Source of the DNA: Terrimicrobiaceae bacterium
GTDB lineage: Bacteria; Verrucomicrobiota; Verrucomicrobiia; Chthoniobacterales; Terrimicrobiaceae
Assembly (NCBI GenBank): GCA_041674265.1
Contig: JBAYWC010000002.1
Span: 8,380-72,379, forward strand
Reading direction: 5' to 3'
Length of the DNA: 64,000 nt
Under the pieces are notes generated by a model. That model worked only from the letters and a program-made list of their open reading frames with translations. It ran no database searches and was not told the origin of the DNA. A program made the translations under genes and the position numbers. Of the stretch, positions 4,916 to 20,702 are shown in pieces (position 1 is the first letter of the stretch; each line of letters opens with the position of its first letter).

Positions 4916-6838
4916 ATGAAAAAACCAGTGCCGAAACGAATCCCAGTCCGGGCGAAAAAGCGGAAAAAATCCTCCCTGCGGAGACGCAGGCACCGGGTAT
5001 CGGGTGCCCTGTTGAAAATCGGGCTGGTAACCCTGCTTCTTTGGGCCGTGGTGGGGCTCTTTTATTATGCCTGGGCGTTGGGCTTCGATCTGCGGACGAT
5101 CCACGAGATGGACCAGCGGTCGGTCGTTTATGATTTCCAGGGAAACTTTTACAGCCGGCTGGCGGGCGAGAACCGCATCGTCGTTCCGTTCGACAAGGTC
5201 TCGAACGATTTTGTCAACGCGCTCATCAGCCGTGAGGACACCCGGTTCTACAGGCACCACGGGGTGGATCCGATCGGGGTCGCCCGCGCCGTGGTGCGGA
5301 ACCTCGTTCTCGGCGGCTTCCGCGAGGGCGCCAGCACGATCACCCAGCAACTCGCCCGCAACAGCTTTCCCCTCGGAGGAAAAAACCTCCACCGCAAACT
5401 GATCGAGGCCGCGCTGGCCTTCCGGATCGAAACCGAGCTGACGAAGGAAGAGATCCTCGAAGCGTATATGAACCGGATCTATTTCGGCTCCGGCACCTAT
5501 GGAATCGAGGCGGCCAGCCAGACCTACTTCGGCAAGCCGGCTTCGCGGCTGAATTTGCACCAGTCGGCCACGCTGGCCGGATTGATCCGGAGCCCGGGCC
5601 GGTTTTCGCCGCTCAACAATCCGAAAGGGTCCGTGCGCGAAAGAAACACGGTTCTGAAAAGAATGTCCGACATCGGTCTCATCACGGGCGCCCAACGGGA
5701 CGAGGCCCAGGCCGAGGAACTTGTCACCGTTTCGAAAACGCGCATTTCCCTCGAGGACAACTGGGCGATGGATGCCATCCTCCGCGATCTCGACATGGTC
5801 CTCGATCCGGGCCAGATGGATGCGGGCGGGCTGAAAATTTATTCCACCATCGACGGGGGGCTCCAGAAATCCGCGGAAGAATCCGTCGCCAGGCGGCTCC
5901 GTGAAATCGAATCCCAGCCCGGCTACCCGCACCGGCCGGCGGGCGCCTTTGCGGGCAAAGCGTTGGATGCGGAAAAATCCGCCCCCTACCTGGAGGCGGC
6001 GGCCCTCGCGATGGACAACGAATCGGGCGGGATTCGCGCGATTGTGGGAGGCCGCGACTACGGGCGCAGCAAGTTCCACCGCGCGCTCTTCGGCCGCCGT
6101 CAGATCGGCTCGACGGTCAAGCCGTTTGTTTATGCCGAGGCGTTCGAGAAGGGGCTGAACCCCTCGGATCCGGTGGACGACGGCAGGCTTGGCCCCGGGG
6201 AAATTCCTTCCCGCTACGGGGCCTATGACCCCGCGAACTCCGATGGAACGTATTTGGGAATCCGCCCGGCAGGCGATGGGCTGGTGGATTCCCGGAACAC
6301 GATGACCGTGCGCATCGGACTGCGCGCCGGAATCGACGACATCGCCGATCTCATCACGCGGGTGGGCCTCTGCAAAAAGCCGCCCCGCTACCCTTCCTTG
6401 TGCCTGGGGACCTTCGAAACGAATCTCAAGGACCTCACCGCGGCCTACACCGTCTTTGCGACCGGGGGCACGAAACTCCAACCTTATCTCATCGAGCGCG
6501 TGACCGATGCCGAGGGCCATCTGCTGTACAAGGCGACCGGCGGGCGTCTCCGGATTTTCTCCCCCCAGGCCGCCAAAATGACCACGGAACTGCTCGGGGA
6601 GGTTGTCGGGAGGGGAACCGCCTCGCGAGCCCATGATCTCGGGCTGCGCGGCGCCGCTGCGGGGAAGACAGGGACCACCGACAAGTTCGTCGATGCCTGG
6701 TTTCTCGGCTTCGATTCCCGGCTGACATGCGGGGTCTGGGTCGGATTCGATCAGCCCAAAACCATCCGCCCCGGCGGCTACGGCGCCACCCTCGCCCTCC
6801 CGATCTGGGTGGATATCATCCAGGCGGCGAAAAAATAA
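4916..6838 (+). CDS. class A penicillin-binding protein (PBP1A-type transglycosylase/transpeptidase)
   Basis: N-terminal TM helix. GT51 motifs EDTRFYRHHGVD and GASTITQQLARN. Transpeptidase motifs STVKP, SRN and KTGTT. Confidence 0.9.
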   Translation: MKKPVPKRIPVRAKKRKKSSLRRRRHRVSGALLKIGLVTLLLWAVVGLFYYAWALGFDLRTIHEMDQRSVVYDFQGNFYSRLAGENRIVVPFDKVSNDFVNALISREDTRFYRHHGVDPIGVARAVVRNLVLGGFREGASTITQQLARNSFPLGGKNLHRKLIEAALAFRIETELTKEEILEAYMNRIYFGSGTYGIEAASQTYFGKPASRLNLHQSATLAGLIRSPGRFSPLNNPKGSVRERNTVLKRMSDIGLITGAQRDEAQAEELVTVSKTRISLEDNWAMDAILRDLDMVLDPGQMDAGGLKIYSTIDGGLQKSAEESVARRLREIESQPGYPHRPAGAFAGKALDAEKSAPYLEAAALAMDNESGGIRAIVGGRDYGRSKFHRALFGRRQIGSTVKPFVYAEAFEKGLNPSDPVDDGRLGPGEIPSRYGAYDPANSDGTYLGIRPAGDGLVDSRNTMTVRIGLRAGIDDIADLITRVGLCKKPPRYPSLCLGTFETNLKDLTAAYTVFATGGTKLQPYLIERVTDAEGHLLYKATGGRLRIFSPQAAKMTTELLGEVVGRGTASRAHDLGLRGAAAGKTGTTDKFVDAWFLGFDSRLTCGVWVGFDQPKTIRPGGYGATLALPIWVDIIQAAKK

Positions 6839-6863
6839 ACGCGTTGATAATCTGATTTTAAGC

Positions 6864-7601
6864 TCACCGGTCCGATTTGGGGCCTTCTTTGAGCTTCACA
6901 AAAGTCACCCGCCCGGTTTTCAAATCCTGAAGGCCGCCGACGAGCGCGATCTGCCCGTTCTCCAGCATGGAACTCAGGATCTTGCTTTTCTTCAGGATGG
7001 CCCGCATCTGCACGATGACATTCTCCACGGTTGCCCGCTCGACAAGGATTTTATTGTCCGAGGAGCGTGCGCCACCTGTCTCCCGCTCCGCGACCGCCAC
7101 GGCAGGCTCGATCTTTTTAAGCAATCCGGTCAGTTTGCCCAACTCCACCCTGTCCACGGCCCCTCTCACCGCGCCGCAGGAGTTGTGTCCAACGACGGCG
7201 ATCAGCTTGGCCCCGGCCACCTTGCAGGAAAACTCAAGGCTGCCCACGATGTCGTCGTTCACCACATTGCCGGCCACGCGCGCGCAGAAAATGTCGCCGA
7301 TGCCCTGATCAAAGACCTGCTCCGGCGCTGTGCGCGAGTCCAGGCAGCAGACGATTGCCGCATAGGGATATTGCCCAGCCGCCGTGACGCGGGCTTCCTC
7401 CAGCAGGTCGCGATGCGCCGGGCGTCCAGCCACGAAACGATGATTCCCCTCCTTGAGCCGCAGCAAGGCGTCTCTCGGGGTCATCGCGTCCTGGCTCGCC
7501 TTGGTCATCACCGCTGCGGCCGACGGAGCCTCGCCGTGGGAAGACGAGCTGGTGACGATGACCAGAGCCAGGCAGGCAAATGGGAGCGAAGTGATTTTCA
7601 T
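6864..7601 (-). CDS. beta-class carbonic anhydrase with signal peptide
   Basis: CCLDSR and HNSCGAV zinc-ligand motifs. Start set at MKITSLPFACLALV (ATG at 7601) rather than the longer ORF start at 7673. Confidence 0.85.
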   Translation of the reverse strand: MKITSLPFACLALVIVTSSSSHGEAPSAAAVMTKASQDAMTPRDALLRLKEGNHRFVAGRPAHRDLLEEARVTAAGQYPYAAIVCCLDSRTAPEQVFDQGIGDIFCARVAGNVVNDDIVGSLEFSCKVAGAKLIAVVGHNSCGAVRGAVDRVELGKLTGLLKKIEPAVAVAERETGGARSSDNKILVERATVENVIVQMRAILKKSKILSSMLENGQIALVGGLQDLKTGRVTFVKLKEGPKSDR

Positions 7602-13114: not shown

Positions 13115-13312
13115 ATGCCCACAACACTCGAAACCATCACACGCGAAGCGCTGGAAGTGCCCCGCCAACAGCAAATCCGGCGCGCACATTATCTACTTTC
13201 GCCCGGCGACGAGCCGGTCGATCTGGAAGTCGAAGCTGCATGGGATACGGAGATCCGCGCCCGGCTGAAAGCCTGCGATGAAGGAAAGCTGGAGACCGTG
13301 CCCTTCGAGTAA
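13115..13312 (+). CDS. addiction-module antitoxin-like ORF (TIGR02574-like), truncated by an in-frame TAA relative to its paralog at 17495
   Basis: 65 aa, about two-thirds identical by hand alignment to the antitoxin at 17495-17734. Homology continues past the stop (see pseudogene 13313-13365). Confidence 0.55.
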   Translation: MPTTLETITREALEVPRQQQIRRAHYLLSPGDEPVDLEVEAAWDTEIRARLKACDEGKLETVPFE

Positions 13313-13421: not shown

Positions 13422-14684
13422 ATGACACCCAAACCTCCAGTTTTGCCTGAGCGCCCCAAGGATCGCTTCGAGGTTTATCGGCTTTTTGACGGGATCTCCA
13501 GTGAGGGAAAAGAGGGGATCGATCAGGGACGAACCCGCACTCCCTTGGTCAAATCTTTTCTCGTCGAGCATGTTTCCTCCACCAGGGGAAGGCAAACCCG
13601 CACTCCCCAAGAAATCTGGTCACGCTTGGGGGGAAGTCCGCACCCGATTGATTCAGACTTTTTTTCCATTCAAGGAACGGTGAGGGATGAATCTGGAACC
13701 CGGCAGACAACCGTTGGCTATTTGGAGCGCTACGACGAACGCTTCTTCGCCTACTACACCACGGAAGTTTCCCAGAGTGCCAAAAAGCGCGTGACAAAGT
13801 GGATCCAGAAATCTCCGGATCTCGATTCCTGCTGGTTCAACAGCGATCTTCTCCAGGTTCTTTGGAACCGGGATGTTTCACGGCGCGGGGACCAGCGATT
13901 CGGCAAGCTGACGTTCAAGCACGAGAGCATTTTTGAGATGCCCGTGAATGCCGAGGATTCGGAAGAGGAACCCGATGAGGACGCCCGGACAGAGGATTCC
14001 GATCTTGAGGAACAAGCCGGACCGGAGAGGAGGAAGGCCCGCTTTGACATGAGCGACCGCATCGGGCGCATCAAGCAGTCGCTGGGCAATCTCCAGGAGC
14101 AGTATCTTCCGCTTTACGCTCTTTATTCGCTCCGCTTTCCCTCACGACTCGGAAGGGGCAGCCACGACCTCTACCAGCATGGTCAGCTCACCAATCGCTC
14201 CGATAGCTTCGAGGACCATCGCGGCACGGCCCTCTATCTCCATCAAGTTTACAAAAATATCCTTGAGAGCACGGAGTCGAAAGCCTGGAGCGATTCGGAA
14301 ACCTCATTGAATGCCGCTACGCGGCCTCACAAAGGCGTGCCGCTGATTGTCCGTTTCGCCGAACCCCTCACCGAGACCACTTTCAAGCAATGGATTTCGC
14401 GCGCCTTCCACAAGAAGAATGTTTTTCGGCTCTGGGGCGAACCCATCTGGATGGGGCCGACGAAGGTTCATGTCTATGGAGCAGACCGACACCTCTGGCA
14501 GCCGCTGAATCTTGAAATCACAGGGGAGGGAATGGTTGCCATCCTCCCGAAAGGAACGTGCGGAAATACCTTTCACCGGCTTGTCACCAACATCCAGCGG
14601 TATGTCTGCCCGAAAGTGGATGCCTGGGTGGGCAGCACTCCGCTCACGGACCTCATGTCACAGGCCACCGGCTCGGAAAATTAA
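13422..14684 (+). CDS. hypothetical protein, island gene 1 (420 aa, no recognised motif; central acidic tract)
   Basis: Long ORF in the island. Contains NAEDSEEEPDEDARTEDSDLEE. Ends 4 nt before the next ORF. Slightly lower GC than the core genes. Confidence 0.7.
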   Translation: MTPKPPVLPERPKDRFEVYRLFDGISSEGKEGIDQGRTRTPLVKSFLVEHVSSTRGRQTRTPQEIWSRLGGSPHPIDSDFFSIQGTVRDESGTRQTTVGYLERYDERFFAYYTTEVSQSAKKRVTKWIQKSPDLDSCWFNSDLLQVLWNRDVSRRGDQRFGKLTFKHESIFEMPVNAEDSEEEPDEDARTEDSDLEEQAGPERRKARFDMSDRIGRIKQSLGNLQEQYLPLYALYSLRFPSRLGRGSHDLYQHGQLTNRSDSFEDHRGTALYLHQVYKNILESTESKAWSDSETSLNAATRPHKGVPLIVRFAEPLTETTFKQWISRAFHKKNVFRLWGEPIWMGPTKVHVYGADRHLWQPLNLEITGEGMVAILPKGTCGNTFHRLVTNIQRYVCPKVDAWVGSTPLTDLMSQATGSEN

Positions 14685-14688
14685 TGCG

Positions 14689-15033
14689 ATGACACCTGCT
14701 GAACTGATCCGCGATCTTTCACTTGAAGTGTCCGCTCAACAGTTGCTCCGTGAAACCACGCAGGGAACCGTCATCTACCTCCCCCGGCAAAAGCAGCAAA
14801 GGATGGAGAAACTCGTCGTCGAGAATATTTTCAAACGCGTCCGGGAAGTTTGGAAGGACAAGCATCCCGACTTGATCCGACTTGAGGGGAGAACCATGAC
14901 GATCAATTTTGAGTCCGACCTCCGCCGTGACGATTTCCTTGACTGGCTTGAGGACGGAGACAAAACGAAATTCTCCGACAAGGCTCCTCCTCCGGAAACC
15001 CCCGAGTTTCCCGGCATGTTCTCCCAATCATGA
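14689..15033 (+). CDS. hypothetical protein, island gene 2 (114 aa)
   Basis: ATG at 14689 (MTPAELIRDLSLEV...). 22 nt upstream of the mod start, same strand. No recognised motif. Confidence 0.55.
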   Translation: MTPAELIRDLSLEVSAQQLLRETTQGTVIYLPRQKQQRMEKLVVENIFKRVREVWKDKHPDLIRLEGRTMTINFESDLRRDDFLDWLEDGDKTKFSDKAPPPETPEFPGMFSQS

Positions 15034-15055
15034 GTCTCGCTCGGAATTCTTTTTC

Positions 15056-17410
15056 ATGCCCACTCTGAACTGGATCGGCAAGGAAGCCGTCGTCAACCAT
15101 CACCACCAGGTCCCGTTTCGTTTGCTCAACGACGTGCCGGATCTTGCATGCGGCGAACCGGGCGCGGGAAACCTCATCGTCGAGGGCGACAACCTCGAAG
15201 CCCTCAAGGCCCTCCTGCCCTACTACGCCGGACAGGTGAAGTGCATCTACATCGACCCGCCTTACAACACGGGCAACGAAGGCTGGGTTTACAATGACAA
15301 CGTCCGCAGCCCGATCATCGGGGAGTGGCTCGGAAAGACCGTCGGCAAGGAGGGCGAAACCCTCGACCGCCACGACCGATGGCTCTGCATGATGTATCCT
15401 CGCTTGGCCCTGCTGCGCGAGTTTCTGCGGGAGGATGGGATTTTGCTGATCACGATTGATGATGCTGAAGTGGAGAGTGCCATAGTTCTCGGAAATGAGA
15501 TTTTCGGCCGCAATAATAACCGAGCGACAATTATTTGGCAGCATAGCGTTCAGCCCAAAGGCTATTCTGGGAAAATTTCAATTCACCACAACTACCTTCT
15601 GGCATTTGCAAAATCTGAAGCGTTCACCTTTCGGGATATTCCACGAAAAGAGGAACACAACGCGAACTACTCCAATCCTGACAATGACCCAAATGGTCCG
15701 TGGCGGTCTGGCGATGTGCGGAATGCACTTTATCGCCCAAACCTCATTTACGACTTAGTCACGCCATCTGGAAAAATCATCAAACCGCCGACAAAAGGCT
15801 GGCGCTGGAGCAAGGAGACGATGACCGAAAGAATTCGGACTGGTGAAATTGTTTTTCGGGCAGATGAAACAAGAATTGTTCGGAAGATTTATCTCAATAA
15901 TCAAGAGGGTCGCGCCCCAGAGTCGATTTGGTTTGGTGAGGACGTTGGAACAACCCGCGATGCGAACCAAGAGCTTAAAGACATATTTACCCACTCCCCG
16001 TTTGATACCCCGAAGCCAACAAGCCTACTTGAACGCATCCTTCAAATTTGCACCAACCCCGGCGACCTGGTATTGGATTCCTTCGCCGGAAGCGGGACGA
16101 CGGGCCATGCGGTATTGAAAATGAACGCCGTAGAAGCGGCGTCCCGCCGCTTGGAATTGGAGGGAAAGACGCAGGATGCGTCTTCTACGGGAAGCGGGAC
16201 GACGGGGCACGCGGTATTGAAAGCGAACGCCGTAGAAGCGGCGTCCCGCCGCTTGGAAAACGAGGGCAAGACGCAGGATGCGTCTTCTACGGTGAACTAT
16301 TTCGACCCGTCTGAATCGGTGGCTCATTTGACCGGGAATCTGCCGCACTGGCGGCAGGATGGGGCGACATATTTTGTGACATTCCGGACAGCGGACTCGA
16401 TGCCGCAGGCCAAACTCAAGCAGTGGTTGGATGAGCGCAATGAGTGGATGGAGGAACATCCGGAACCCCACACATCCGCCGAACGCCAGGAATACACGAA
16501 GCTTTTCCCACAGAGGTTTCAGAAGTGGCTGGATGAGGGATACGGACCGTGCCACCTTGCAAGGCCCGACGTGAAGGCGATTGTCGAAAATGCGTTGAGT
16601 CATTTCGACGGGACCCGTTACCGGCTTGGGGAGTATGTCGTGATGCCGAACCACGTCCATGTGCTGGTGTCGCCGCTGGGCGAGCATGTGCTTTCGGACA
16701 TCCTACAGGCTTTGAAATCTTTCACGGCAAAGGAAATCAACCGTCTCATCGGCGAGACGGGACATTTTTGGCAGAAGGAATCCTTCGATCACATCGTGCG
16801 CAGCCCGGAGCAGATGGAACGGATCAAGGAATACATCCGGGACAATCCAAAAGCAGTAGAAGCGGCGTCCCGCCGCTTTGGAGCAAAGACGCAAGATGCG
16901 TCTTCTACGACTCGGCGTTTCATTCTCGTTGAGATGGAGCCGGAGATTGCGCCGAAGATCACGGCGGAGCGGGTGCGGCGGGTGGCGGAGGGCTACAAGA
17001 ACGCCAAGGGCGAGAAGGTTGCCGGGCTCGGCGGAGGGTTCCGCTATTGCCGTCTCGGCGAGCCGCTTTTCGATGCCGACCGGCAGATCCGTCCGTCCGT
17101 GACATTCGGCGAGTTGGCGCGGCATGTGTATTTCACCGAGACCGGCGAGCCGCTTCCGCGCGAGCGGGTGCCGAATACCCCGCTGCTCGGCGTGTGCCGT
17201 GGCGTGGCGATTTACCTGCTCTACAACGGCATCCTTGGCGACAAGAGCACGAATGGCGGCAACGTGCTGACCCGCGCCGTTCTGTCCAAGCTGCCGAAGT
17301 TCGACGGCCAGAAAGTGATCTATTGCGCGGGCTGCCTGCTCGGGACCGGGCGCCGGAATGCCGCGCGGATCGTGATCCGACAAACCCCCTACGAAATCCG
17401 CACGACATGA
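15056..17410 (+). CDS. mod: Type III-like R-M methyltransferase (Mod, beta-class N6-adenine MTase) carrying an in-frame REP/RAYT insertion
   Basis: MPTLNWIGKE opening, motif IV IYIDPPYNTGNEGW and motif I SFAGSGTTGHAVLKMN. The usual continuation RRFILVEMEP...GLGGGFRYCRLGEP...IRQTPYEI resumes only after an ~780-nt insert. The whole stretch remains one open frame. Confidence 0.85.
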   Translation: MPTLNWIGKEAVVNHHHQVPFRLLNDVPDLACGEPGAGNLIVEGDNLEALKALLPYYAGQVKCIYIDPPYNTGNEGWVYNDNVRSPIIGEWLGKTVGKEGETLDRHDRWLCMMYPRLALLREFLREDGILLITIDDAEVESAIVLGNEIFGRNNNRATIIWQHSVQPKGYSGKISIHHNYLLAFAKSEAFTFRDIPRKEEHNANYSNPDNDPNGPWRSGDVRNALYRPNLIYDLVTPSGKIIKPPTKGWRWSKETMTERIRTGEIVFRADETRIVRKIYLNNQEGRAPESIWFGEDVGTTRDANQELKDIFTHSPFDTPKPTSLLERILQICTNPGDLVLDSFAGSGTTGHAVLKMNAVEAASRRLELEGKTQDASSTGSGTTGHAVLKANAVEAASRRLENEGKTQDASSTVNYFDPSESVAHLTGNLPHWRQDGATYFVTFRTADSMPQAKLKQWLDERNEWMEEHPEPHTSAERQEYTKLFPQRFQKWLDEGYGPCHLARPDVKAIVENALSHFDGTRYRLGEYVVMPNHVHVLVSPLGEHVLSDILQALKSFTAKEINRLIGETGHFWQKESFDHIVRSPEQMERIKEYIRDNPKAVEAASRRFGAKTQDASSTTRRFILVEMEPEIAPKITAERVRRVAEGYKNAKGEKVAGLGGGFRYCRLGEPLFDADRQIRPSVTFGELARHVYFTETGEPLPRERVPNTPLLGVCRGVAIYLLYNGILGDKSTNGGNVLTRAVLSKLPKFDGQKVIYCAGCLLGTGRRNAARIVIRQTPYEIRTT
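16129..16189 (+). repeat. REP doublet 1 (CGTAGAAGCGGCGTCCCGCCGCTT ... AAGACGCAGGATGCGTCTTCTACG)
   Basis: Two inverted hairpin units (AAGCGGCG/CGCCGCTT and AAGACGCA/TGCGTCTT) bracketed by CGTAGAAG/CTTCTACG. Confidence 0.85.
16231..16291 (+). repeat. REP doublet 2
   Basis: Same structure as doublet 1, exactly 102 nt downstream. Confidence 0.85.
16856..16909 (+). repeat. REP doublet 3 (shorter spacer)
   Basis: GTAGAAGCGGCGTCCCGCCGCTTTGGAGCAAAGACGCAAGATGCGTCTTCTAC, directly after the RAYT YIRDNPK motif. Confidence 0.85.
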
Positions 17411-17420
17411 AAACTGGATA

Positions 17421-17470
17421 CGTAGAAGCGGCGTCCCGCCGCTTGCAAAGCGACAAGATGCCGCTTCTAC
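17421..17470 (+). repeat. REP doublet 4 (intergenic, between mod stop and antitoxin start)
   Basis: CGTAGAAGCGGCGTCCCGCCGCTTGCAAAGCGACAAGATGCCGCTTCTAC. The first arm is identical to doublets 1-3; the second arm is a variant. Confidence 0.8.
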
Positions 17471-17494
17471 TTGATAAAACGAAAGGAAAACGCC

Positions 17495-17734
17495 ATGGCA
17501 ACAACACTTGAAGTGATCACGCACGAGGTGCTGGAACTACCCCGCTCCCAGCAAATCCGCCTTGCCCATTATCTTCTCTCGCTGGATGACGATCCGGTGG
17601 ATCCGGAAATCGAAGCCGCGTGGGAGAATGAAATCTGCGCCCGCATGCAAGCGTATCGTGAGGGGCGGCTGGAAACTGTTCCATTTGAAGAGGTGAAACG
17701 GGACATCGCAGCCCGCTTGCGCGAATGCAAGTAA
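17495..17734 (+). CDS. addiction-module antitoxin (TIGR02574-like), partner of ParE
   Basis: MATTLEVITHEVLELPRSQQIRLAHYLLSLDDDPVDPEIEAAWENEI... AGGA lies ~7 nt upstream of the ATG at 17495. Overlaps the toxin start by 10 nt. Confidence 0.8.
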   Translation: MATTLEVITHEVLELPRSQQIRLAHYLLSLDDDPVDPEIEAAWENEICARMQAYREGRLETVPFEEVKRDIAARLRECK

Positions 17735-18012
17735 CGTTCTCGCCTCAAGCCCGCGAAGAAATCGCGGAAGCTGCGCTCTACTACGAGGGACAGCAAAGTG
17801 GGCTGGGTTCGGAATACACGGAAGAGGTGTATGCGTTCGTGCAGATGGTGACCATCGCTCCGGAGCAGCCGAGACTCAGGCGTCGTGGTTATCGAAGAGT
17901 GAATCTGGATCGTTTTCCTTACTACATCGCCTATTCGATTGAAACCGGAGTCATCTTGATTTTGGCTATCGGCCATGCTGCCCGAAAGCCCGAATACTGG
18001 ATAAAGCCATGA
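17725..18012 (+). CDS. parE: ParE/RelE-family type II toxin
   Basis: 95 aa. MQVTFSPQAREEIAEAALYYEGQ...RRVNLDRFPYYIAYSIETGVILILAIGHAARKPEYW is typical of the plasmid-stabilisation ParE/RelE fold. Its stop overlaps the res start (ATGA). Confidence 0.8.
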   Translation: MQVTFSPQAREEIAEAALYYEGQQSGLGSEYTEEVYAFVQMVTIAPEQPRLRRRGYRRVNLDRFPYYIAYSIETGVILILAIGHAARKPEYWIKP

Positions 18013-20702
18013 TCCAACTGAAGGACTACCAACAGCGGGTGCTGGAAAGCCTGCGGGCTTTTCTGAAACGCACCGCGCAAACGCGACATCCGGCGGAAGC
18101 CTTCCACGAGGTCACAGAAAAAGTCTATGGCGAGCCGCTGACCTACATTCCGGCCACGGCGGCGGGCCTGCCATCGGACATGCCGTATGTGTGCCTGCGC
18201 GTCCCAACGGGCGGAGGCAAGACGCTTCTGGCCTGCCATGCAGTGGGCATCGCGCAGACCGAGCTTCTGCGGGCCGAACACAGCGTGGTTCTCTGGCTGG
18301 TGCCGAACAATACGATCCTTGAGCAGACCGCCGACGCATTGCGCGATGTCCAGCATCCCTACCGCCGGGCGCTGGAACTCGAATGCGCCGGACCGGTCGA
18401 GGTGCTGCGGATTGATGAGGCGCTCAACCTGACCCGCGCCCGTGTCGAAGGCGCGACTGTGGTTATCGTGGCGACGATGCAAAGCTTCCGTGTCGAGGAC
18501 ACGACCGGACGCAAGGTCTATGCGCCGAGCAGCCCGTTTCAGGATCATTTTCTCAACCTGGCCCCGCAGGACAGCGCGCGGCTTTTCGAGGGGCCGGACA
18601 AGAAGCCGATCCCGAGTCTGGTGAACATGCTGCGGCTTCGACGGCCGATCGTGATCGTGGACGAGGCGCACAACGCCCGCACCGACCTTTCCTTTGCCAC
18701 GCTGGGAAATCTCCTGCCCTCGTGCATCATCGAATTCACCGCTACGCCCGCCACAACCAAGCAACCGTCGAATGTGCTGCACCGGGTATCCGCAGCCGAA
18801 CTCAAAGCCGCCGACATGGTGAAGCTGCCGCTGCGGGTCATCGCACGGGATCCGAGCCAGCGGGAGCAACTGCTCAGCGAGGCGCTTTCCCTGCGGGCCG
18901 ATCTGGAAAAACTCGCGGCCATCGAGGGCCAGCACACCGGCGAATATCTCCGGCCGATTCTGCTCATTCAGGCGGTTCGGGTGGATGACTGCAAGGACCT
19001 CAAAGCCCGGCTGGTCGCCGAGTTCGGCCTGAACGAGGCGGAGATCAAAATCTCCGTGGGCAGCTTGGATGAACTCGAAGCGATCAAGGACATCCGCGCG
19101 ACGAACTGCCCGGTGCGGATCATCATCACCGTGCAGAAACTTCGCGAGGGCTGGGATTGTCCGTTCGCGTATGTGCTGTGCAGCCTGCGCGAGACGCGGA
19201 GCGCCACCGCCATCGAGCAGATTGTCGGCCGCATACTCCGGCTTCCCGGTGCCACGCCGAAACAACATCCGGATCTCAACTGCGCGTATGCTTTTTCCGT
19301 CTCCGATTCGATGCCGGAGGTTCTGAACGAGCTGCGGCAGGCATTGGAGAGCAACGGGTTCACTCCCGCCGAGGCCGAGCGCATCGTGCTGCCGGGCGGA
19401 CAATCCACACTCGGGCTCGGGGTTCAGCCGCAGACGGTCACTGTCAATCCTGTCACGGAACTCGATGCCGCCGTGGCCCAGATCCAGAGCGGAGCACTCG
19501 CCGGAAAAGTGCGTATCAATGTGGAGAAAGGCGAGATCACGGTCATTGCCCCCCTGACTCCGGAAGAATCCGAAATGGCCGAAAGCGTGGTAAAAACGCC
19601 CGGGGCCAAAACCAAGATCCGGCAGGCCGTGCAAAAAGTGATCGAGGCCGAGAAGGCGATGGGCGGCACCGGCGCGGCCCGCGCCGCGAGCGGATACGAG
19701 CAGCAACTGGATTTCATCGTGCCGCTCCTCTGCGTGGACGAGGACGGCGAGTTGTTGGAATTTGAGAGCACGTTCCTCCTCGAACATCCGTGGAAACTGA
19801 GCGCGAAGGACGCCGCGCAGCCCGCGCACTACAATCCGCTTCAACGTCCGACCGGCGTGCTCGGGGTGATCGATGTCGGGGCCAAGGGCACGGTCGAGGG
19901 AGTGACCGTCGCCCGCGATGAGGCCGAGGATTTTATCGCCACGCTCCACCAGCAGACGCTCCAGCTCGGCGGTGACAGCCATTGGTCGCTCGAAGCCCTG
20001 GTGGCATGGATCGACGTCCGCATTCCGCACGAAGACATCCCCATGGGAGAATCCGCCGGGTTCCTGCGAAAAGTCGTTCGCGGCCTCATGGCACAACACG
20101 GATTGCAGGATGTGGACACCATCGCCCTGGACCGCTTCCGCCTGCGTGATGAGGTCGAGGATCTGATCCAGGCCCATCGCATCCACGAGAGGGAGGCTGC
20201 CTTCAAGAATTGGCTCCTTCCGGAATCCGCTCTGTCAGTGAGCGACGCGCGCGCGCTGAACTTCAAGACAAGCAGCTACGAACCGAGCTGGCTTTACGAG
20301 GGTGGACATCAGTTCAAGAAACACTACTTCGGTCCGGAGCCCGGCGAACTCCGCGAGAAGAAATCCGACGGCAAGCTGACGGAAGAGTTCCAATGCGCCT
20401 GCTACCTCGATGCGCTTCCCGCCGTGCTCTGGTGGGTGCGCAACCTGTCCCAGAAGAGCAGTTCATTCCGCCTTCAAACTTCCAAGCAGTGGTTCTTCCC
20501 CGATTTCATCTGCCAGCTTACCGATGGCCGGATTATGGCGGTGGAATACAAAGGAAAACACCTGTGGAATGATGCCGAAGAAAAGCGCGCAGTCGGGGCC
20601 GTATGGCAATCCCGGAGCAAGGGACAGTGCGTGTTTGTGATGCCAACAGATGGCGATTTTGGAGTCATCGGGAAAACCTGTCTTTCGGGAGCGAGGGAAT
20701 GA
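18009..20702 (+). CDS. res: Type III-like restriction enzyme Res subunit (SF2 helicase plus C-terminal PD-(D/E)xK nuclease)
   Basis: Walker A VPTGGGKTLLA, DEAH box IVIVDEAHNAR, and the C-terminal FFPDFICQLTDGRIMAVEYKGKHL nuclease-like motif. 897 aa. Confidence 0.85.
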   Translation: MIQLKDYQQRVLESLRAFLKRTAQTRHPAEAFHEVTEKVYGEPLTYIPATAAGLPSDMPYVCLRVPTGGGKTLLACHAVGIAQTELLRAEHSVVLWLVPNNTILEQTADALRDVQHPYRRALELECAGPVEVLRIDEALNLTRARVEGATVVIVATMQSFRVEDTTGRKVYAPSSPFQDHFLNLAPQDSARLFEGPDKKPIPSLVNMLRLRRPIVIVDEAHNARTDLSFATLGNLLPSCIIEFTATPATTKQPSNVLHRVSAAELKAADMVKLPLRVIARDPSQREQLLSEALSLRADLEKLAAIEGQHTGEYLRPILLIQAVRVDDCKDLKARLVAEFGLNEAEIKISVGSLDELEAIKDIRATNCPVRIIITVQKLREGWDCPFAYVLCSLRETRSATAIEQIVGRILRLPGATPKQHPDLNCAYAFSVSDSMPEVLNELRQALESNGFTPAEAERIVLPGGQSTLGLGVQPQTVTVNPVTELDAAVAQIQSGALAGKVRINVEKGEITVIAPLTPEESEMAESVVKTPGAKTKIRQAVQKVIEAEKAMGGTGAARAASGYEQQLDFIVPLLCVDEDGELLEFESTFLLEHPWKLSAKDAAQPAHYNPLQRPTGVLGVIDVGAKGTVEGVTVARDEAEDFIATLHQQTLQLGGDSHWSLEALVAWIDVRIPHEDIPMGESAGFLRKVVRGLMAQHGLQDVDTIALDRFRLRDEVEDLIQAHRIHEREAAFKNWLLPESALSVSDARALNFKTSSYEPSWLYEGGHQFKKHYFGPEPGELREKKSDGKLTEEFQCACYLDALPAVLWWVRNLSQKSSSFRLQTSKQWFFPDFICQLTDGRIMAVEYKGKHLWNDAEEKRAVGAVWQSRSKGQCVFVMPTDGDFGVIGKTCLSGARE

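What the first reader, a model, noticed from the sequence alone, without database searches (positions are those of the whole stretch)
16088..16912. REP-RAYT cassette inserted in frame inside the Mod methyltransferase, leaving one continuous 785-codon ORF
Immediately after MTase motif I (SFAGSGTTGHAVLKMN), the normal continuation (RRFILVEMEP...) is displaced by about 780 nt. The insert consists of:
- two palindromic REP doublets
- a complete-looking HUH/Y1 transposase-like domain (LPHWRQDGATYFVTFRT, PNHVHVLV, EYIRDNP), of the REP-associated tyrosine transposase type
- a third REP doublet

There is no stop codon at either junction, so the REP hairpins are translated as AVEAASRRLE.EGKTQDASST linkers. 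The RAYT lacks its own stop and its usual C-terminal tail.

This is either a very recent mobile-element hit that happens to preserve the frame in a surface loop, or a selected MTase-HUH fusion. I am not aware of an HUH ssDNA-nicking domain inside an R-M modification subunit having been described.
Basis: partly seen in the sequence, partly recalled or inferred. Interest (0 to 1): 0.8.

Follow-up and report, generated by a model that had tools for sequence, protein, structure and literature searches.

The report
REP-flanked transposase nested inside Mod methyltransferase
A small REP-associated HUH transposase gene (RAYT) with its flanking DNA hairpins sits in frame in a surface loop of an apparently working Type III restriction-modification methyltransferase; it has been kept there under selection, and the same transposase family lives inside many other host genes, especially phage-defence methyltransferases, which I found described in no paper.

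Summary
ORF 15056-17410 (784 aa) is a Type III Mod. A REPIN-RAYT-REPIN unit is inserted in frame between methyltransferase motif I and the RRFILVEMEP strand.

It is not a fresh accident:
- Six other full-length Mod-RAYT chimeras exist in independent assemblies (55-76% identical), all in the same loop, all open, all followed by a res gene (split into two calls in one locus).
- RAYT dN/dS is 0.10-0.24. It is 0.11 for a pair that also shares the 102-nt duplication, so that divergence happened in the embedded state.
- The HUH histidines, the catalytic Tyr and the GTAG hairpins are kept.
- AlphaFold gives an intact Mod fold plus a separate TnpA-REP-like domain on disordered REP-encoded linkers.

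The "missing C-terminal tail" is a subfamily trait, not a truncation.

The wider pattern: 37 of 138 cluster representatives of this RAYT subfamily are embedded in host proteins. Hosts include PglX/Type IIG methylases, HsdR, HsdS, tRNA synthetases and Mur ligase.

Best reading: a REPtron living as a guest domain in genes the cell cannot afford to break. A direct role in Mod function is not shown. The searchable literature does not describe this.

The parts
15056..17410 (+). Chimeric mod-RAYT ORF: 784 aa plus stop, one continuous reading frame.
   Evidence: The AlphaFold model has mean pLDDT 85.5 and pTM 0.71.
15254..15265 (+). Methyltransferase motif IV, DPPY (aa 67-70). These are the catalytic residues of a beta-class N6-adenine methyltransferase.
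   Evidence: Invariant in alignment A1. PF01555 match.
15450..16050 (+). Target-recognition region of Mod. G+C is low (about 46-47%, against about 60% in the flanks), and this is the part that differs most among the chimeras.
16076..16102 (+). Methyltransferase motif I, DSFAGSGTT (aa 341-349), the AdoMet-binding loop.
   Evidence: Eight of the nine residues are invariant columns in A1 (the fourth, Ala, is Gly in P0017 and P0053). Aligns to EcoP15I and H. pylori Mod.
16088..16291 (+). Tandem duplication of 102 nt, two copies 92% identical. Each copy holds 41 nt of mod (GSGTTGHAVLKxN) plus one REPIN.
   Evidence: L001 shares the duplication.
16130..16188 (+). REPIN 1: a GTAG-tagged REP plus an inverted REP, translated as VEAASRRLELEGKTQDASST.
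   Evidence: ssDNA fold -19.4 kcal/mol, z = -5.1.
16232..16290 (+). REPIN 2, translated as VEAASRRLENEGKTQDASST.
   Evidence: Fold z = -4.1.
16292..16852 (+). Complete RAYT (HUH/Y1) domain, aa 413-599. It begins at a GTG that aligns with the start of free-standing relatives. HUH histidines are H533 (16652-16654) and H535 (16658-16660). The catalytic Tyr is Y593 (16832-16834).
   Evidence: all family-invariant residues are kept. pLDDT is above 90. Foldseek matches 4er8, E = 1e-5. dN/dS is 0.10-0.24.
16856..16908 (+). REPIN 3, translated as VEAASRRFGAKTQDASST. Homology with the uninterrupted mod of L010 resumes at about 16910-16913.
   Evidence: Fold z = -5.2.
16913..17410 (+). Mod C-terminal part, from RRFILVEMEP (aa 620) to the stop. 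It is 95-98% identical in protein to the uninterrupted homologs P0017, P0021 and P0022.
17422..17470 (+). REPIN 4, in the intergenic space just after the mod stop. Absent from the otherwise near-identical locus L010.
   Evidence: Fold z = -5.9.
17471..18012 (+). Antitoxin (Unstab_antitox, 17471-17734) and ParE toxin (17725-18012) pair, lying between mod and res.
   Evidence: The same pair follows the mod gene in L001 and L010.
18009..20702 (+). res: the Type III restriction subunit, 897 aa and intact. It carries the GGGKT, DEAH and PD..EYK motifs.
   Evidence: Translation and ResIII domain. A res gene follows every chimera found; it is cut by the contig end in L001 and L005 and split into two calls in L006.

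Best explanation
A REPtron is nested in frame in the variable surface loop of an active Type III Mod methyltransferase. A REPtron is a RAYT gene (HUH/Y1 single-strand DNA nuclease) bracketed by its own GTAG-tagged REP hairpin doublets. The loop lies between the motif I helix and the next beta strand (RRFILVEMEP).

**How it works**
- Translation from the mod start reads through the REP hairpins. They encode short, disordered Ala/Ser/Arg-rich linkers.
- The product is one polypeptide: a normal Mod fold carrying an independently folded RAYT domain as a guest.
- Losing Mod while Res is active should be lethal. Any frameshift or stop in the insert is therefore removed by selection. The element is locked in and expressed from mod signals.
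- The RAYT domain itself is also under purifying selection. Its REP hairpins are kept at the DNA level, so it most likely still binds and cuts its REPs. Locally this shows as REP gain and duplication.

**Wider context**
This locus is one case of a general habit of this tail-less RAYT subfamily. It lives in frame inside genes the cell cannot afford to inactivate, with a strong bias towards defence methyltransferases and restriction subunits.

**Shown versus inferred**
- Shown: the anatomy, its conservation, purifying selection, the predicted fold and the broad host range.
- Inferred: that Mod is active, that the RAYT is catalytically active, and that indispensability of the host gene is why the arrangement persists.
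For: **Architecture**
-.

**Independent chimeras**
- Six other full-length Mod-RAYT chimeras carry PF01797 plus PF01555 in the same loop.
- They come from separate assemblies. P0003 lies on 8 contigs and P0013 on 6. A res gene lies downstream in every locus; it is complete in L002-L004 and L007-L009, cut by the contig end in L001 and L005, and split into two calls in L006.

**Selection**
- RAYT dN/dS is 0.095-0.24 in unsaturated pairs.
- WIN-L001 gives 0.11 at dS 0.50. That pair shares the same junction and the same duplication, so the divergence accrued while embedded.
- The Mod halves give dN/dS 0.08-0.11 for the same pair.
- The HUH histidines, the Tyr and all other family-invariant residues are kept.

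**REP hairpins**
- REP stems differ between lineages by paired changes that keep the hairpin.
- The 23-nt REP is identical between lineages whose RAYT dS is saturated.

**Structure**
- AlphaFold: Mod and RAYT are confident. The linkers at aa 378-410 and 609-615 are disordered.
- Foldseek: EcoP15I Mod 4zcf at 1e-24 and TnpA-REP 4er8 at 1e-5.

**Permissive loop**
- Of 102 uninterrupted homologs, 18 carry inserts of 23-42 aa there, most of them reading like translated palindromic elements. One (P0037) is a solo REPIN.

**Wider habit of the subfamily**
- 37 of 138 representatives are embedded, with REP-encoded peptides on both sides.
- Hosts include 15 PglX/Type IIG methylases, HsdR, HsdS, tRNA synthetases and Mur ligase.
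- Three MAGs in the GTDB genome collection (metagenome-assembled genomes) carry the RAYT in HsdR at one and the same site.
Against: - No methylome, expression or biochemical data exist. Activity of Mod and of the RAYT domain is inferred.
- dN/dS rests on seven sequences and pairwise Nei-Gojobori estimates.
- The cluster library is biased. Its representatives are probably the longest members, so 37 of 138 overstates the share of embedded copies. Only 3 of the 120 best 90%-identity clusters have flanks of 100 aa or more.
- The cassette tree disagrees with the Mod backbone. RAYT is 85-90% identical between backbones that are only 58% identical in the Mod C-terminal part. Backbones 95-98% identical to the window lack the RAYT. 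So recombination or repeated insertion occurred. Part of the divergence between backbones may predate embedding.
- Whether there was one capture or several is unresolved.
- The bias towards defence genes could equally mean a functional link rather than a safe haven.
Confidence: 0.62

Rival explanations
1. Functional exaptation. The HUH domain has become a working part of the restriction-modification enzyme. It might tether Mod to single-stranded or hairpin DNA at replication forks, add a second nuclease activity, or regulate methylation. On this view the recurrence in defence methyltransferases reflects a shared function.
For: - Embedded copies show a strong bias towards DNA methyltransferases and restriction subunits. 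Hosts include 15 of 61 PglX/Type IIG proteins, HsdR, HsdS, a Type ISP protein and Type III Mod.
- Insertion sites are conserved within host families.
- The domain is under purifying selection.
- From established knowledge: Mod acts as a dimer, so two HUH domains would be held close together.
Against: - Hosts also include unrelated housekeeping enzymes: LeuRS and MetRS, Mur ligase, PdxA, ExoVII, Sua5 and radical SAM proteins.
- The linkers are REP hairpins kept at the DNA level, as expected of an element rather than a designed linker.
- Closely related Mod backbones function without the insert.
- No data bear on activity.
Confidence: 0.2
2. Allele-shuffling device. The REPs and the RAYT promote recombination. 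This swaps segments of restriction-modification genes, such as specificity domains or whole cassettes, between alleles or genomes. The element is kept because it diversifies specificity.
For: - The cassette phylogeny is incongruent with the Mod flanks.
- WIN and L001 are about 95% identical outside the target-recognition region, but 76% overall because that region differs.
- The target-recognition region has atypical G+C.
- The insert lies next to a domain boundary in Mod, HsdR and HsdS.
Against: - From established knowledge, exchange of target-recognition domains is common in Type III mod genes that have no RAYT.
- No REP lies on the other side of the target-recognition region in the window.
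- This reading does not explain embedding in housekeeping enzymes.
Confidence: 0.1
3. Recent neutral hit or gene death. A mobile element landed in mod and preserved the frame by chance. The locus is decaying.
For: For a single event the chance of frame preservation is not negligible, roughly a few percent.
Against: - Seven diverged full-length chimeras are all open.
- dN/dS is 0.1-0.2 in the RAYT and 0.08-0.11 in the Mod halves.
- res is intact with all its motifs.
- The linkers have been remodelled, always in multiples of 3 nt.
Confidence: 0.03
4. Assembly artefact. Repeat-induced misjoining at the REPs created a false chimera.
For: REPs are repeated sequences, and most of the related sequences come from metagenomes.
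Against: - The same architecture appears in independent assemblies from JGI, ENA and NCBI, with diverged sequences.
- The REPs (23-60 nt) are shorter than the assembly k-mers (k141 contigs).
- Homology to the uninterrupted mod resumes exactly at the REPIN edge.
Confidence: 0.01

Closest known systems
REPtron: a RAYT/TnpA-REP gene flanked by its REPs or REPINs (Nunvar 2010; Bertels and Rainey 2011; Ton-Hoang 2012; Messing 2012, PMC3479197; Quentin 2018, PMC6006769)
   Same: - An HUH motif and a YIxxNP tyrosine.
- GTAG-tagged hairpins in inverted pairs on both sides of the gene.
- A predicted fold that matches E. coli TnpA-REP, 4er8.
- JGI names close free-standing relatives "REP element-mobilizing transposase RayT".
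   Different: - Known REPtrons are intergenic, stand-alone genes. Here the whole unit is translated as an internal domain of a host protein.
- This subfamily has no autoinhibitory C-terminal tail.
- It scores below the NCBIfam RAYT cutoff, 63.9 against 80 bits.
- Its REPs are rare around the locus.
In-frame intragenic palindromic repeats: Rickettsia RPEs, and GTAG REPs inside Opitutus terrae genes (Ogata 2000; Di Nocera 2013, PMC3733652)
   Same: - Palindromic repeats are inserted in frame, translated as short peptides, and presumed to sit in permissive loops.
- Verrucomicrobia are the richest source of intragenic GTAG REPs.
- Solo REPIN or other palindromic inserts occupy this same Mod loop in 18 of 102 homologs.
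   Different: Those inserts are 20-80 aa of repeat-encoded peptide only. Here the repeats bring a complete, conserved 187-aa enzyme domain with them.
Type III restriction-modification Mod subunits (EcoP15I 4zcf, H. pylori 6k0w, Mbo45V 7dsu)
   Same: - Beta-class motif order: DPPY, then the target-recognition region, then FxGxG.
- Sequence and fold matches.
- An adjacent res gene.
   Different: The solved Mod subunits have only a short loop where this protein carries 262 aa.
Inteins, and IStrons (group I intron plus IS200/IS605 chimeras)
   Same: Selfish elements that reside inside essential or conserved genes without destroying them.
   Different: - There is no removal step here. Pfam reported no Hint/intein domain among its hits on this protein, and the junction residues are wrong for an intein.
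- Rfam finds no ribozyme.
- The guest stays in the mature protein.
SETMAR-type transposase-methyltransferase fusions in eukaryotes (from my own knowledge)
   Same: A transposase domain joined to a methyltransferase in one polypeptide and kept under selection.
   Different: SETMAR is an end-to-end fusion of unrelated enzyme classes in primates. It is not an internal insertion bracketed by the element's own end hairpins.

Membership tests
Type III R-M Mod (beta-class N6-adenine DNA methyltransferase) | Motif IV (DPPY) lies upstream of the target-recognition region and of motif I (FxGxG). | tested here: met
   DPPY is at aa 67-70 and DSFAGSGTT at aa 341-349. PF01555 matches at 1.8e-35.
Type III R-M Mod (beta-class N6-adenine DNA methyltransferase) | Sequence and fold similarity to solved Mod subunits. 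| tested here: met
   phmmer: 6k0w at 4e-50 and 4zcf at 4.7e-43. Foldseek: 4zcf at 1.3e-24.
Type III R-M Mod (beta-class N6-adenine DNA methyltransferase) | A partner res gene with helicase motifs and a PD-(D/E)xK nuclease motif. | tested here: met
   res is at 18009-20702, 897 aa, with a ResIII domain. GGGKT, DEAH and PD..EYK are read from the translation.
Type III R-M Mod (beta-class N6-adenine DNA methyltransferase) | Site-specific m6A methylation activity. | not testable with these tools
   Needs a methylome or an enzyme assay.
RAYT / TnpA-REP (REP-associated tyrosine transposase) | An HUH motif and a catalytic Tyr in a YIxxNP helix. | tested here: met
   NHVHVLV (H533, H535) and EYIRDNP (Y593). 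These positions are invariant in 63 relatives.
RAYT / TnpA-REP (REP-associated tyrosine transposase) | The gene is flanked by GTAG-tagged REP hairpins in inverted pairs. | tested here: met
   The same holds in all the other chimeras.
RAYT / TnpA-REP (REP-associated tyrosine transposase) | A match to the curated family models. | tested here: inconclusive
   Pfam Y1_Tnp scores 36.2 bits against a cutoff of 23, so it passes. NCBIfam REP_Tyr_transpos scores 63.9 against a cutoff of 80, so it fails. Foldseek matches 4er8 at 1e-5.
RAYT / TnpA-REP (REP-associated tyrosine transposase) | The cognate REPs are dispersed through the host genome. | tested here: inconclusive
   The 64-kb window has none outside the mod locus. 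The exact 23-mer is dispersed in many PVC (Planctomycetes-Verrucomicrobia-Chlamydiae superphylum) and other genomes: more than 119 loci, of which only 7 carry a RAYT. The rest of the source genome was not available.
RAYT / TnpA-REP (REP-associated tyrosine transposase) | An autoinhibitory C-terminal extension of about 25 aa, as in E. coli TnpA-REP. | tested here: not met
   Absent here and in free-standing relatives, which end after YIRDNPK. PMC6006769 says subclasses 2.4 and 2.7 lack it, so it is not universal to RAYTs.
IS200/IS605 insertion sequence | A TnpA of the IS200 type. Multi-copy status was not assessed. | tested here: not met
   NCBIfam transpos_IS200 scores 30.8 bits against a cutoff of 55. 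The Tyr motif is YIxxNP, not Y---Q.
Intein | A Hint domain, an N-terminal Cys or Ser, and a C-terminal His-Asn followed by Cys, Ser or Thr. | tested here: not met
   Pfam reports only N6_N4_Mtase and Y1_Tnp. The junctions read KMN/AVEAAS and DASST/TRRF.
IStron / self-splicing intron carrying a transposase | A ribozyme that removes the element from the mRNA. | tested here: not met
   Rfam finds no match below E = 0.2 in 14800-18200.
In-frame intragenic REP/RPE insertions | Palindromic repeats translated in frame within a conserved protein, at a site that is variable among homologs. | tested here: met
   The linkers are disordered in the model.

The most novel reading that the evidence does not exclude
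This tail-less RAYT subfamily would represent an undescribed lifestyle for a bacterial transposase-derived element. The whole REP-RAYT-REP unit lives as an unspliced guest domain in frame inside host proteins. It prefers DNA methyltransferases and restriction subunits of defence systems: Type III Mod, Type I HsdR and HsdS, and Type IIG/BREX PglX. It persists, and perhaps spreads between phyla, by riding genes that cells cannot inactivate and that move horizontally. A stronger version is that the HUH domain gives these defence enzymes a new single-strand or hairpin DNA activity.
Probability: 0.5. Interest if true: 0.85.

Novelty: new variant of a known kind. Interest (0 to 1): 0.78.

Why it matters
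- RAYTs are regarded as single-copy, intergenic, domesticated transposases whose benefit to the host is an open question. If a whole subfamily survives as in-frame guest domains of indispensable or addictive genes, that suggests a new persistence strategy for selfish DNA. It would resemble an intein without splicing.
- It also gives a concrete reason why REPs and RAYTs persist.
- The exact 23-nt REP is shared across phyla. This hints that defence islands act as vehicles for these elements.
- If the HUH domain is instead functionally coupled to methyltransferases, these would be a new class of restriction-modification and BREX enzymes with a single-strand DNA nicking and joining module.
- Either way, annotation pipelines currently mislabel these proteins. 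The chimera is named "transposase" in one record, and free RAYTs are named "type I restriction enzyme R subunit" in JGI.

Tried and rejected
**Alternatives rejected**
- Intein: Pfam reported no Hint domain among its hits and the junction residues are wrong.
- Intron or IStron: Rfam finds nothing below E = 0.2.
- Separate expression signals inside the insert: the promoter and terminator scan gave no more sites than shuffled sequence. No Shine-Dalgarno-like sequence precedes the GTG at 16292 (read).
- Assembly artefact: rejected by independent, diverged assemblies.
- Truncated RAYT: rejected by alignment to free-standing relatives.

**Analyses that led nowhere**
- Single versus multiple origin of the Mod-embedded RAYTs could not be settled. 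WIN, L001, L002 and L004 form a tight group. L006 and L007 are as close to free-standing RAYTs (68-70%) as to that group (66-71%). L005 groups with free-standing copies.
- The word-indexed protein search did not return the known chimeras when queried with the RAYT domain or with a junction-spanning segment. So a census of Mod-RAYT chimeras beyond the seven (six full-length, one partial) was not obtained.
- A test for a universal frame lock between the REPs and the RAYT failed. In free-standing copies the REPs are read in other frames, or the RAYT has its own stop (L048, L088). The in-frame state is therefore a selected subset, not a built-in property.

**Literature**
- Searches found no description of a RAYT nested in a restriction-modification gene.
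Full report
**1. Observation**

The window holds one uninterrupted ORF from ATG 15056 to the stop at 17408-17410, 784 aa. Pfam finds a DNA methylase domain (N6_N4_Mtase, aa 61-357, 1.8e-35). It also finds an IS200-like Y1 transposase domain (aa 521-596, 7.6e-09, above the curated cutoff).

The REP arm GTAGAAGCGGCGTCCCGCCGCTT occurs four times in the window, and its inverted partner AAGACGCAGGATGCGTCTTCTAC three times within one mismatch (the fourth doublet carries a diverged partner). All lie at this locus, and shuffled sequence gave none. They form doublets (REPINs) at 16130-16188, 16232-16290 and 16856-16908 inside the ORF. A fourth lies at 17422-17470, just after the stop. As single-stranded DNA the doublets fold far better than shuffles, with z from -4.1 to -5.9.

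The first two doublets belong to a 102-nt tandem duplication, 16088-16189 and 16190-16291. Each copy also carries 41 nt of mod, encoding GSGTTGHAVLKxN.

**2. The host gene is a Type III mod in an intact system**

- The protein aligns to H. pylori Mod (6k0w, 4e-50) and EcoP15I Mod (4zcf, 4.7e-43).
- The insert falls where those proteins have a short loop, between the helix after motif I (DSFAGSGTT) and the next strand.
- DPPY and FxGxG are present.
- Downstream lie an antitoxin/ParE pair and a 897-aa res gene. res has a ResIII domain and intact GGGKT, DEAH and PD..EYK motifs.
- Nothing points to gene death.

**3. The guest is a complete RAYT**

Free-standing relatives are 190-260 aa and 57-66% identical. 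JGI names many of them "REP element-mobilizing transposase RayT". They cover the whole 187-aa domain, begin a few residues before FDPSEP, and end right after YIRDNPK. The GTG at 16292 aligns with their start codons. The embedded copy is therefore not truncated.

The missing C-terminal tail is a trait of this subfamily. In E. coli TnpA-REP the tail of about 25 aa is an autoinhibitor (PMC3479197). Quentin et al. report that subclasses 2.4 and 2.7 lack it (PMC6006769).

All residues invariant in 63 relatives are kept, including H533, H535 and Y593. The domain scores below the NCBIfam RAYT cutoff, 63.9 against 80 bits. It is therefore a distant subfamily.

**4. Not a one-off**

A search with the whole protein found one identical partial sequence, labelled Terrimicrobiaceae. 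It also found six other full-length proteins carrying both domains, 55-76% identical.

- In all six the RAYT sits in the same loop and the frame is open.
- Their DNA was recovered from independent JGI, ENA and NCBI assemblies. P0003 lies on 8 contigs and P0013 on 6.
- Every locus has a res gene downstream, after a variable accessory gene: a toxin-antitoxin pair, ORF6N, Bro-N or RhuM (absent in L006). res is complete in L002-L004 and L007-L009, cut by the contig end in L001 and L005, and split into two calls in L006.
- In every chimera the linkers on both sides are GTAG-tagged REP hairpins read in the same frame, as VEAASRRL and KTQDASST.
- Their number and sequence differ by lineage. L005 uses GTAGACGCGGCG. 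L006 has four to five tandem copies of GTAGAAGCGACTTCCAGTCGCTT. Every unit is a multiple of 3 nt.
- Stem changes are paired, so the hairpins persist. One example is GACGCA..TGCGTC changing to GACGCG..CGCGTC.
- The 23-nt REP is identical between the window and L007, although synonymous sites of their RAYT domains are saturated. This points to constraint, or re-copying, at the DNA level.

**5. Selection**

| Segment and pair | dN/dS | Note |
|---|---|---|
| RAYT, WIN-L001 | 0.11 | dS 0.50 |
| RAYT, WIN-L002 | 0.15 | |
| RAYT, WIN-L004 | 0.095 | |
| RAYT, L001-L004 | 0.14 | |
| RAYT, L002-L004 | 0.24 | |
| Mod N-terminal part, WIN-L001 | 0.11 | |
| Mod C-terminal part, WIN-L001 | 0.08 | |

All values come from pairwise Nei-Gojobori estimates. 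WIN and L001 share the same junction and the same 102-nt duplication. Their divergence therefore happened while the RAYT was embedded. The domain is under purifying selection as part of the chimera. This rejects a neutral or decaying insert.

**6. Structure**

AlphaFold2, run on a 124-sequence alignment, gives mean pLDDT 85.5 and pTM 0.71.

- Both Mod parts and the RAYT domain are confident.
- Residues 378-410 and 609-615, the REP-encoded linkers and the duplicated motif I copy, fall below pLDDT 50.
- Foldseek matches EcoP15I Mod (1.3e-24), H. pylori Mod and Mbo45V Mod.
- For the guest domain it matches E. coli TnpA-REP bound to a REP hairpin (4er8, 1e-5) and the ISDra2 transposase.
- The model fits an intact methyltransferase carrying a tethered, independently folded HUH domain.

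**7. History of the cassette**

- RAYT domains of WIN, L001, L002 and L004 are 85-94% identical.
- The Mod C-terminal parts of WIN and L002/L004 are only 58% identical.
- Uninterrupted homologs P0021, P0022 and P0017 are 95-98% identical to the window in that part.
- A DNA alignment with the uninterrupted locus L010, which has the same toxin-antitoxin pair downstream, shows about 95% identity resuming at 16910-16913, the edge of REPIN 3. REPIN 4 is absent from L010.
- The left junction, AAC GCC | GTAGAAGCGG, is the same in WIN, L001, L002 and L004.

So the cassette, or the flanks, has been exchanged between mod alleles. Whether L005, L006 and L007 are separate captures is unresolved.

The loop is a hot spot. 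Of 102 uninterrupted homologs, 18 carry 23-42 aa inserts, most of which read like translated palindromic elements. P0037 has a solo REPIN of the L005 type. The 102-nt insert in L010 starts with GTAG and folds as an imperfect long hairpin, z = -2.2. Recombination between the two flanking REPINs would delete the RAYT and leave such an in-frame solo REPIN. This last step is inference.

**8. The wider pattern**

A full phmmer scan of 1.84 billion cluster representatives with the RAYT domain gave 10,747 hits at E <= 1e-3. The best 150 were listed, and 138 of them contain a near full-length domain. Their context is as follows.

| Context of the RAYT domain | Representatives |
|---|---|
| 100 aa or more of other sequence on both sides | 37 |
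| 100 aa or more on the N-terminal side only | 21 |
| 100 aa or more on the C-terminal side only | 13 |
| Free-standing | 67 |

In the embedded cases where the domain boundaries could be located by motif, REP-encoded peptides such as VEAASRRL...RQDAAST usually flank the domain on both sides.

Pfam on the 61 proteins of 400 aa or more shows these hosts:

- Eco57I (12), MmeI (11) and N6_Mtase (9) methylase domains
- class I tRNA synthetases (4)
- EcoEI R C-terminal domain (3) and ResIII (3)
- Mur ligase, adenosine deaminase, radical SAM, ExoVII, PdxA, HypF, Sua5 and a DinG-like helicase

PADLOC assigns 15 of the 61 to PglX (BREX) or Type IIG enzyme models, with E-values down to 0. The last protein search added more HsdR (EcoEI_R_C), Type ISP, DprA, GIY-YIG and radical SAM hosts. 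P0235 is an HsdS-REP-RAYT chimera.

The exact 23-nt REP occurs in more than 119 loci of the GTDB genome collection. These span Verrucomicrobiota, Planctomycetota, Kiritimatiellae, Lentisphaerae, Deltaproteobacteria, Nitrospirales and others. Only seven of those loci hold a RAYT. In three of them, all metagenome-assembled genomes (Verrucomicrobiales, Limisphaerales, Proteobacteria), the RAYT is in frame inside HsdR at the same site...DPDxVEAASRRL. This explains why JGI labels some free RAYTs "type I restriction enzyme R subunit".

Caveat: cluster representatives are probably the longest members, so the embedded share is inflated. Among the 120 best 90%-identity clusters, only 3 have flanks of 100 aa or more.

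**9. Interpretation**

The best-supported reading is a REPtron living as an in-frame guest domain.

- Selection on the host gene forbids frameshifts and stops in the insert. For Mod, the reason is that loss of methylation with an active Res should kill the cell. For housekeeping hosts, the reason is essentiality.
- Selection on the RAYT itself keeps the domain and its hairpins.
- The bias towards defence genes may reflect their addictive nature and their horizontal mobility. It could instead reflect a real functional link.
- The data here do not separate these possibilities.
- Free-standing copies do not show a fixed frame relation to their REPs. The in-frame state is therefore a selected subset.

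**10. Comparison with the literature**

- In-frame intragenic REPs are known. Examples are Rickettsia RPEs and GTAG REPs in Opitutus terrae genes (PMC3733652), and REPs inside tnpA-REP genes (PMC6006769).
- Six literature searches found no description of a RAYT nested in a restriction-modification gene or in any other host gene. The library lacks most subscription-journal papers, so absence is not proof.
- I rate the finding a new variant of a known kind: REPtron plus intragenic REP.

**11. Verdict**

- The "recent hit" reading is rejected.
- The "selected fusion" reading is supported for maintenance of the frame and the domain, but not shown for function.
- The finding opens onto a broader and apparently undescribed pattern.

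Noticed in passing
Mod homologs P0004, P0011, P0017, P0021, P0022, P0037, P0041, P0044, P0081, P0095, P0099, P0112 and others. In DNA, the loop segment inside the L010 mod gene (L010 1610-3307), which aligns to the insert region of the window (about 16100-16912).: The same Mod loop holds 23-42 aa inserts in 18 of 102 uninterrupted homologs. Most read like translated palindromic elements, for example AKDAKE...LGEHSELC or HKEHKE...SLSSLRS. One (P0037) is a solo REPIN. The loop is a hot spot for in-frame hairpin elements of more than one family.
   Followed up: partly
L128 (Verrucomicrobiales MAG CAYTNL010000042), L115 (Limisphaerales MAG JBKJKE010000237) and L044 (Proteobacteria MAG JAJZRU010000001): The RAYT is nested in frame in Type I HsdR at one and the same site, ...DPDxVEAASRRL, just before the EcoEI_R_C domain. 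The 1181-aa HsdR of L128 also has a separate in-frame REP insert.
   Followed up: partly
L129 (Chthoniobacter flavus MAG DYRS01000005), about 6179-7585: Two tandem RAYT copies, with identical tblastn scores, lie in one continuous open frame of more than 709 aa. REP-encoded peptides separate them.
   Followed up: no
Proteins P0248, P0249, P0252 and P0267: PglX/MmeI-like methylases from different 50%-identity clusters carry the RAYT at one shared site. It lies between ...EYLRF(V/A)KV and ...PAAG(T/K/S)F(D/E)GWP, upstream of motif I (LDPCxGSGHFLV). This is a second host family with a conserved insertion point.
   Followed up: partly
window 13131-13312 compared with 17471-17734: A second, shorter antitoxin-like sequence (MPTTLETITREALEVPRQQQIRRAHYLL...ETVPFE) lies upstream of the mod region. 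It clearly resembles the Unstab_antitox gene downstream of mod but has no adjacent ParE. The two copies bracket the 420-aa unknown gene and mod.
   Followed up: no
window 15450-16050: The target-recognition region of mod has 46-47% G+C, against about 60% around it. It is the segment that differs between otherwise near-identical alleles (WIN and L001). This fits exchange of specificity domains.
   Followed up: partly
Genome-contig scan, loci L012-L130: The exact 23-nt REP GTAGAAGCGGCGTCCCGCCGCTT is shared by genomes of many phyla. These include Verrucomicrobiota, Planctomycetota, Kiritimatiellae, Lentisphaerae, Deltaproteobacteria, Nitrospirales, Eisenbacteria, a Clostridia MAG, Thiobacillus and Sulfuriferula. 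That is unusual conservation for a REP and suggests horizontal spread.
   Followed up: partly
L001 9937-9995 and 12436-12540; L007 10032 (equivalent positions in L008 and L009): Extra REP copies sit immediately upstream of the mod start and downstream of its stop in L001, and just after res in L007-L009. Almost none occur elsewhere in flanks of up to 10 kb. REP spread looks local to the RAYT.
   Followed up: partly
window 13422-14684: A 420-aa ORF upstream of mod has no Pfam or NCBIfam match. In L011 a 421-aa gene (annotated PF25924, MJECL33) lies two genes upstream of mod, separated from it by a 350-aa gene; homology to the window ORF was not tested.
   Followed up: no
Tool behaviour: The word-indexed protein search did not return the known Mod-RAYT chimeras (P0002, P0003, P0007) when queried with the RAYT domain. 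It also missed them with a segment copied from P0007 itself. Counts of chimeras from that tool are therefore lower bounds.
   Followed up: no
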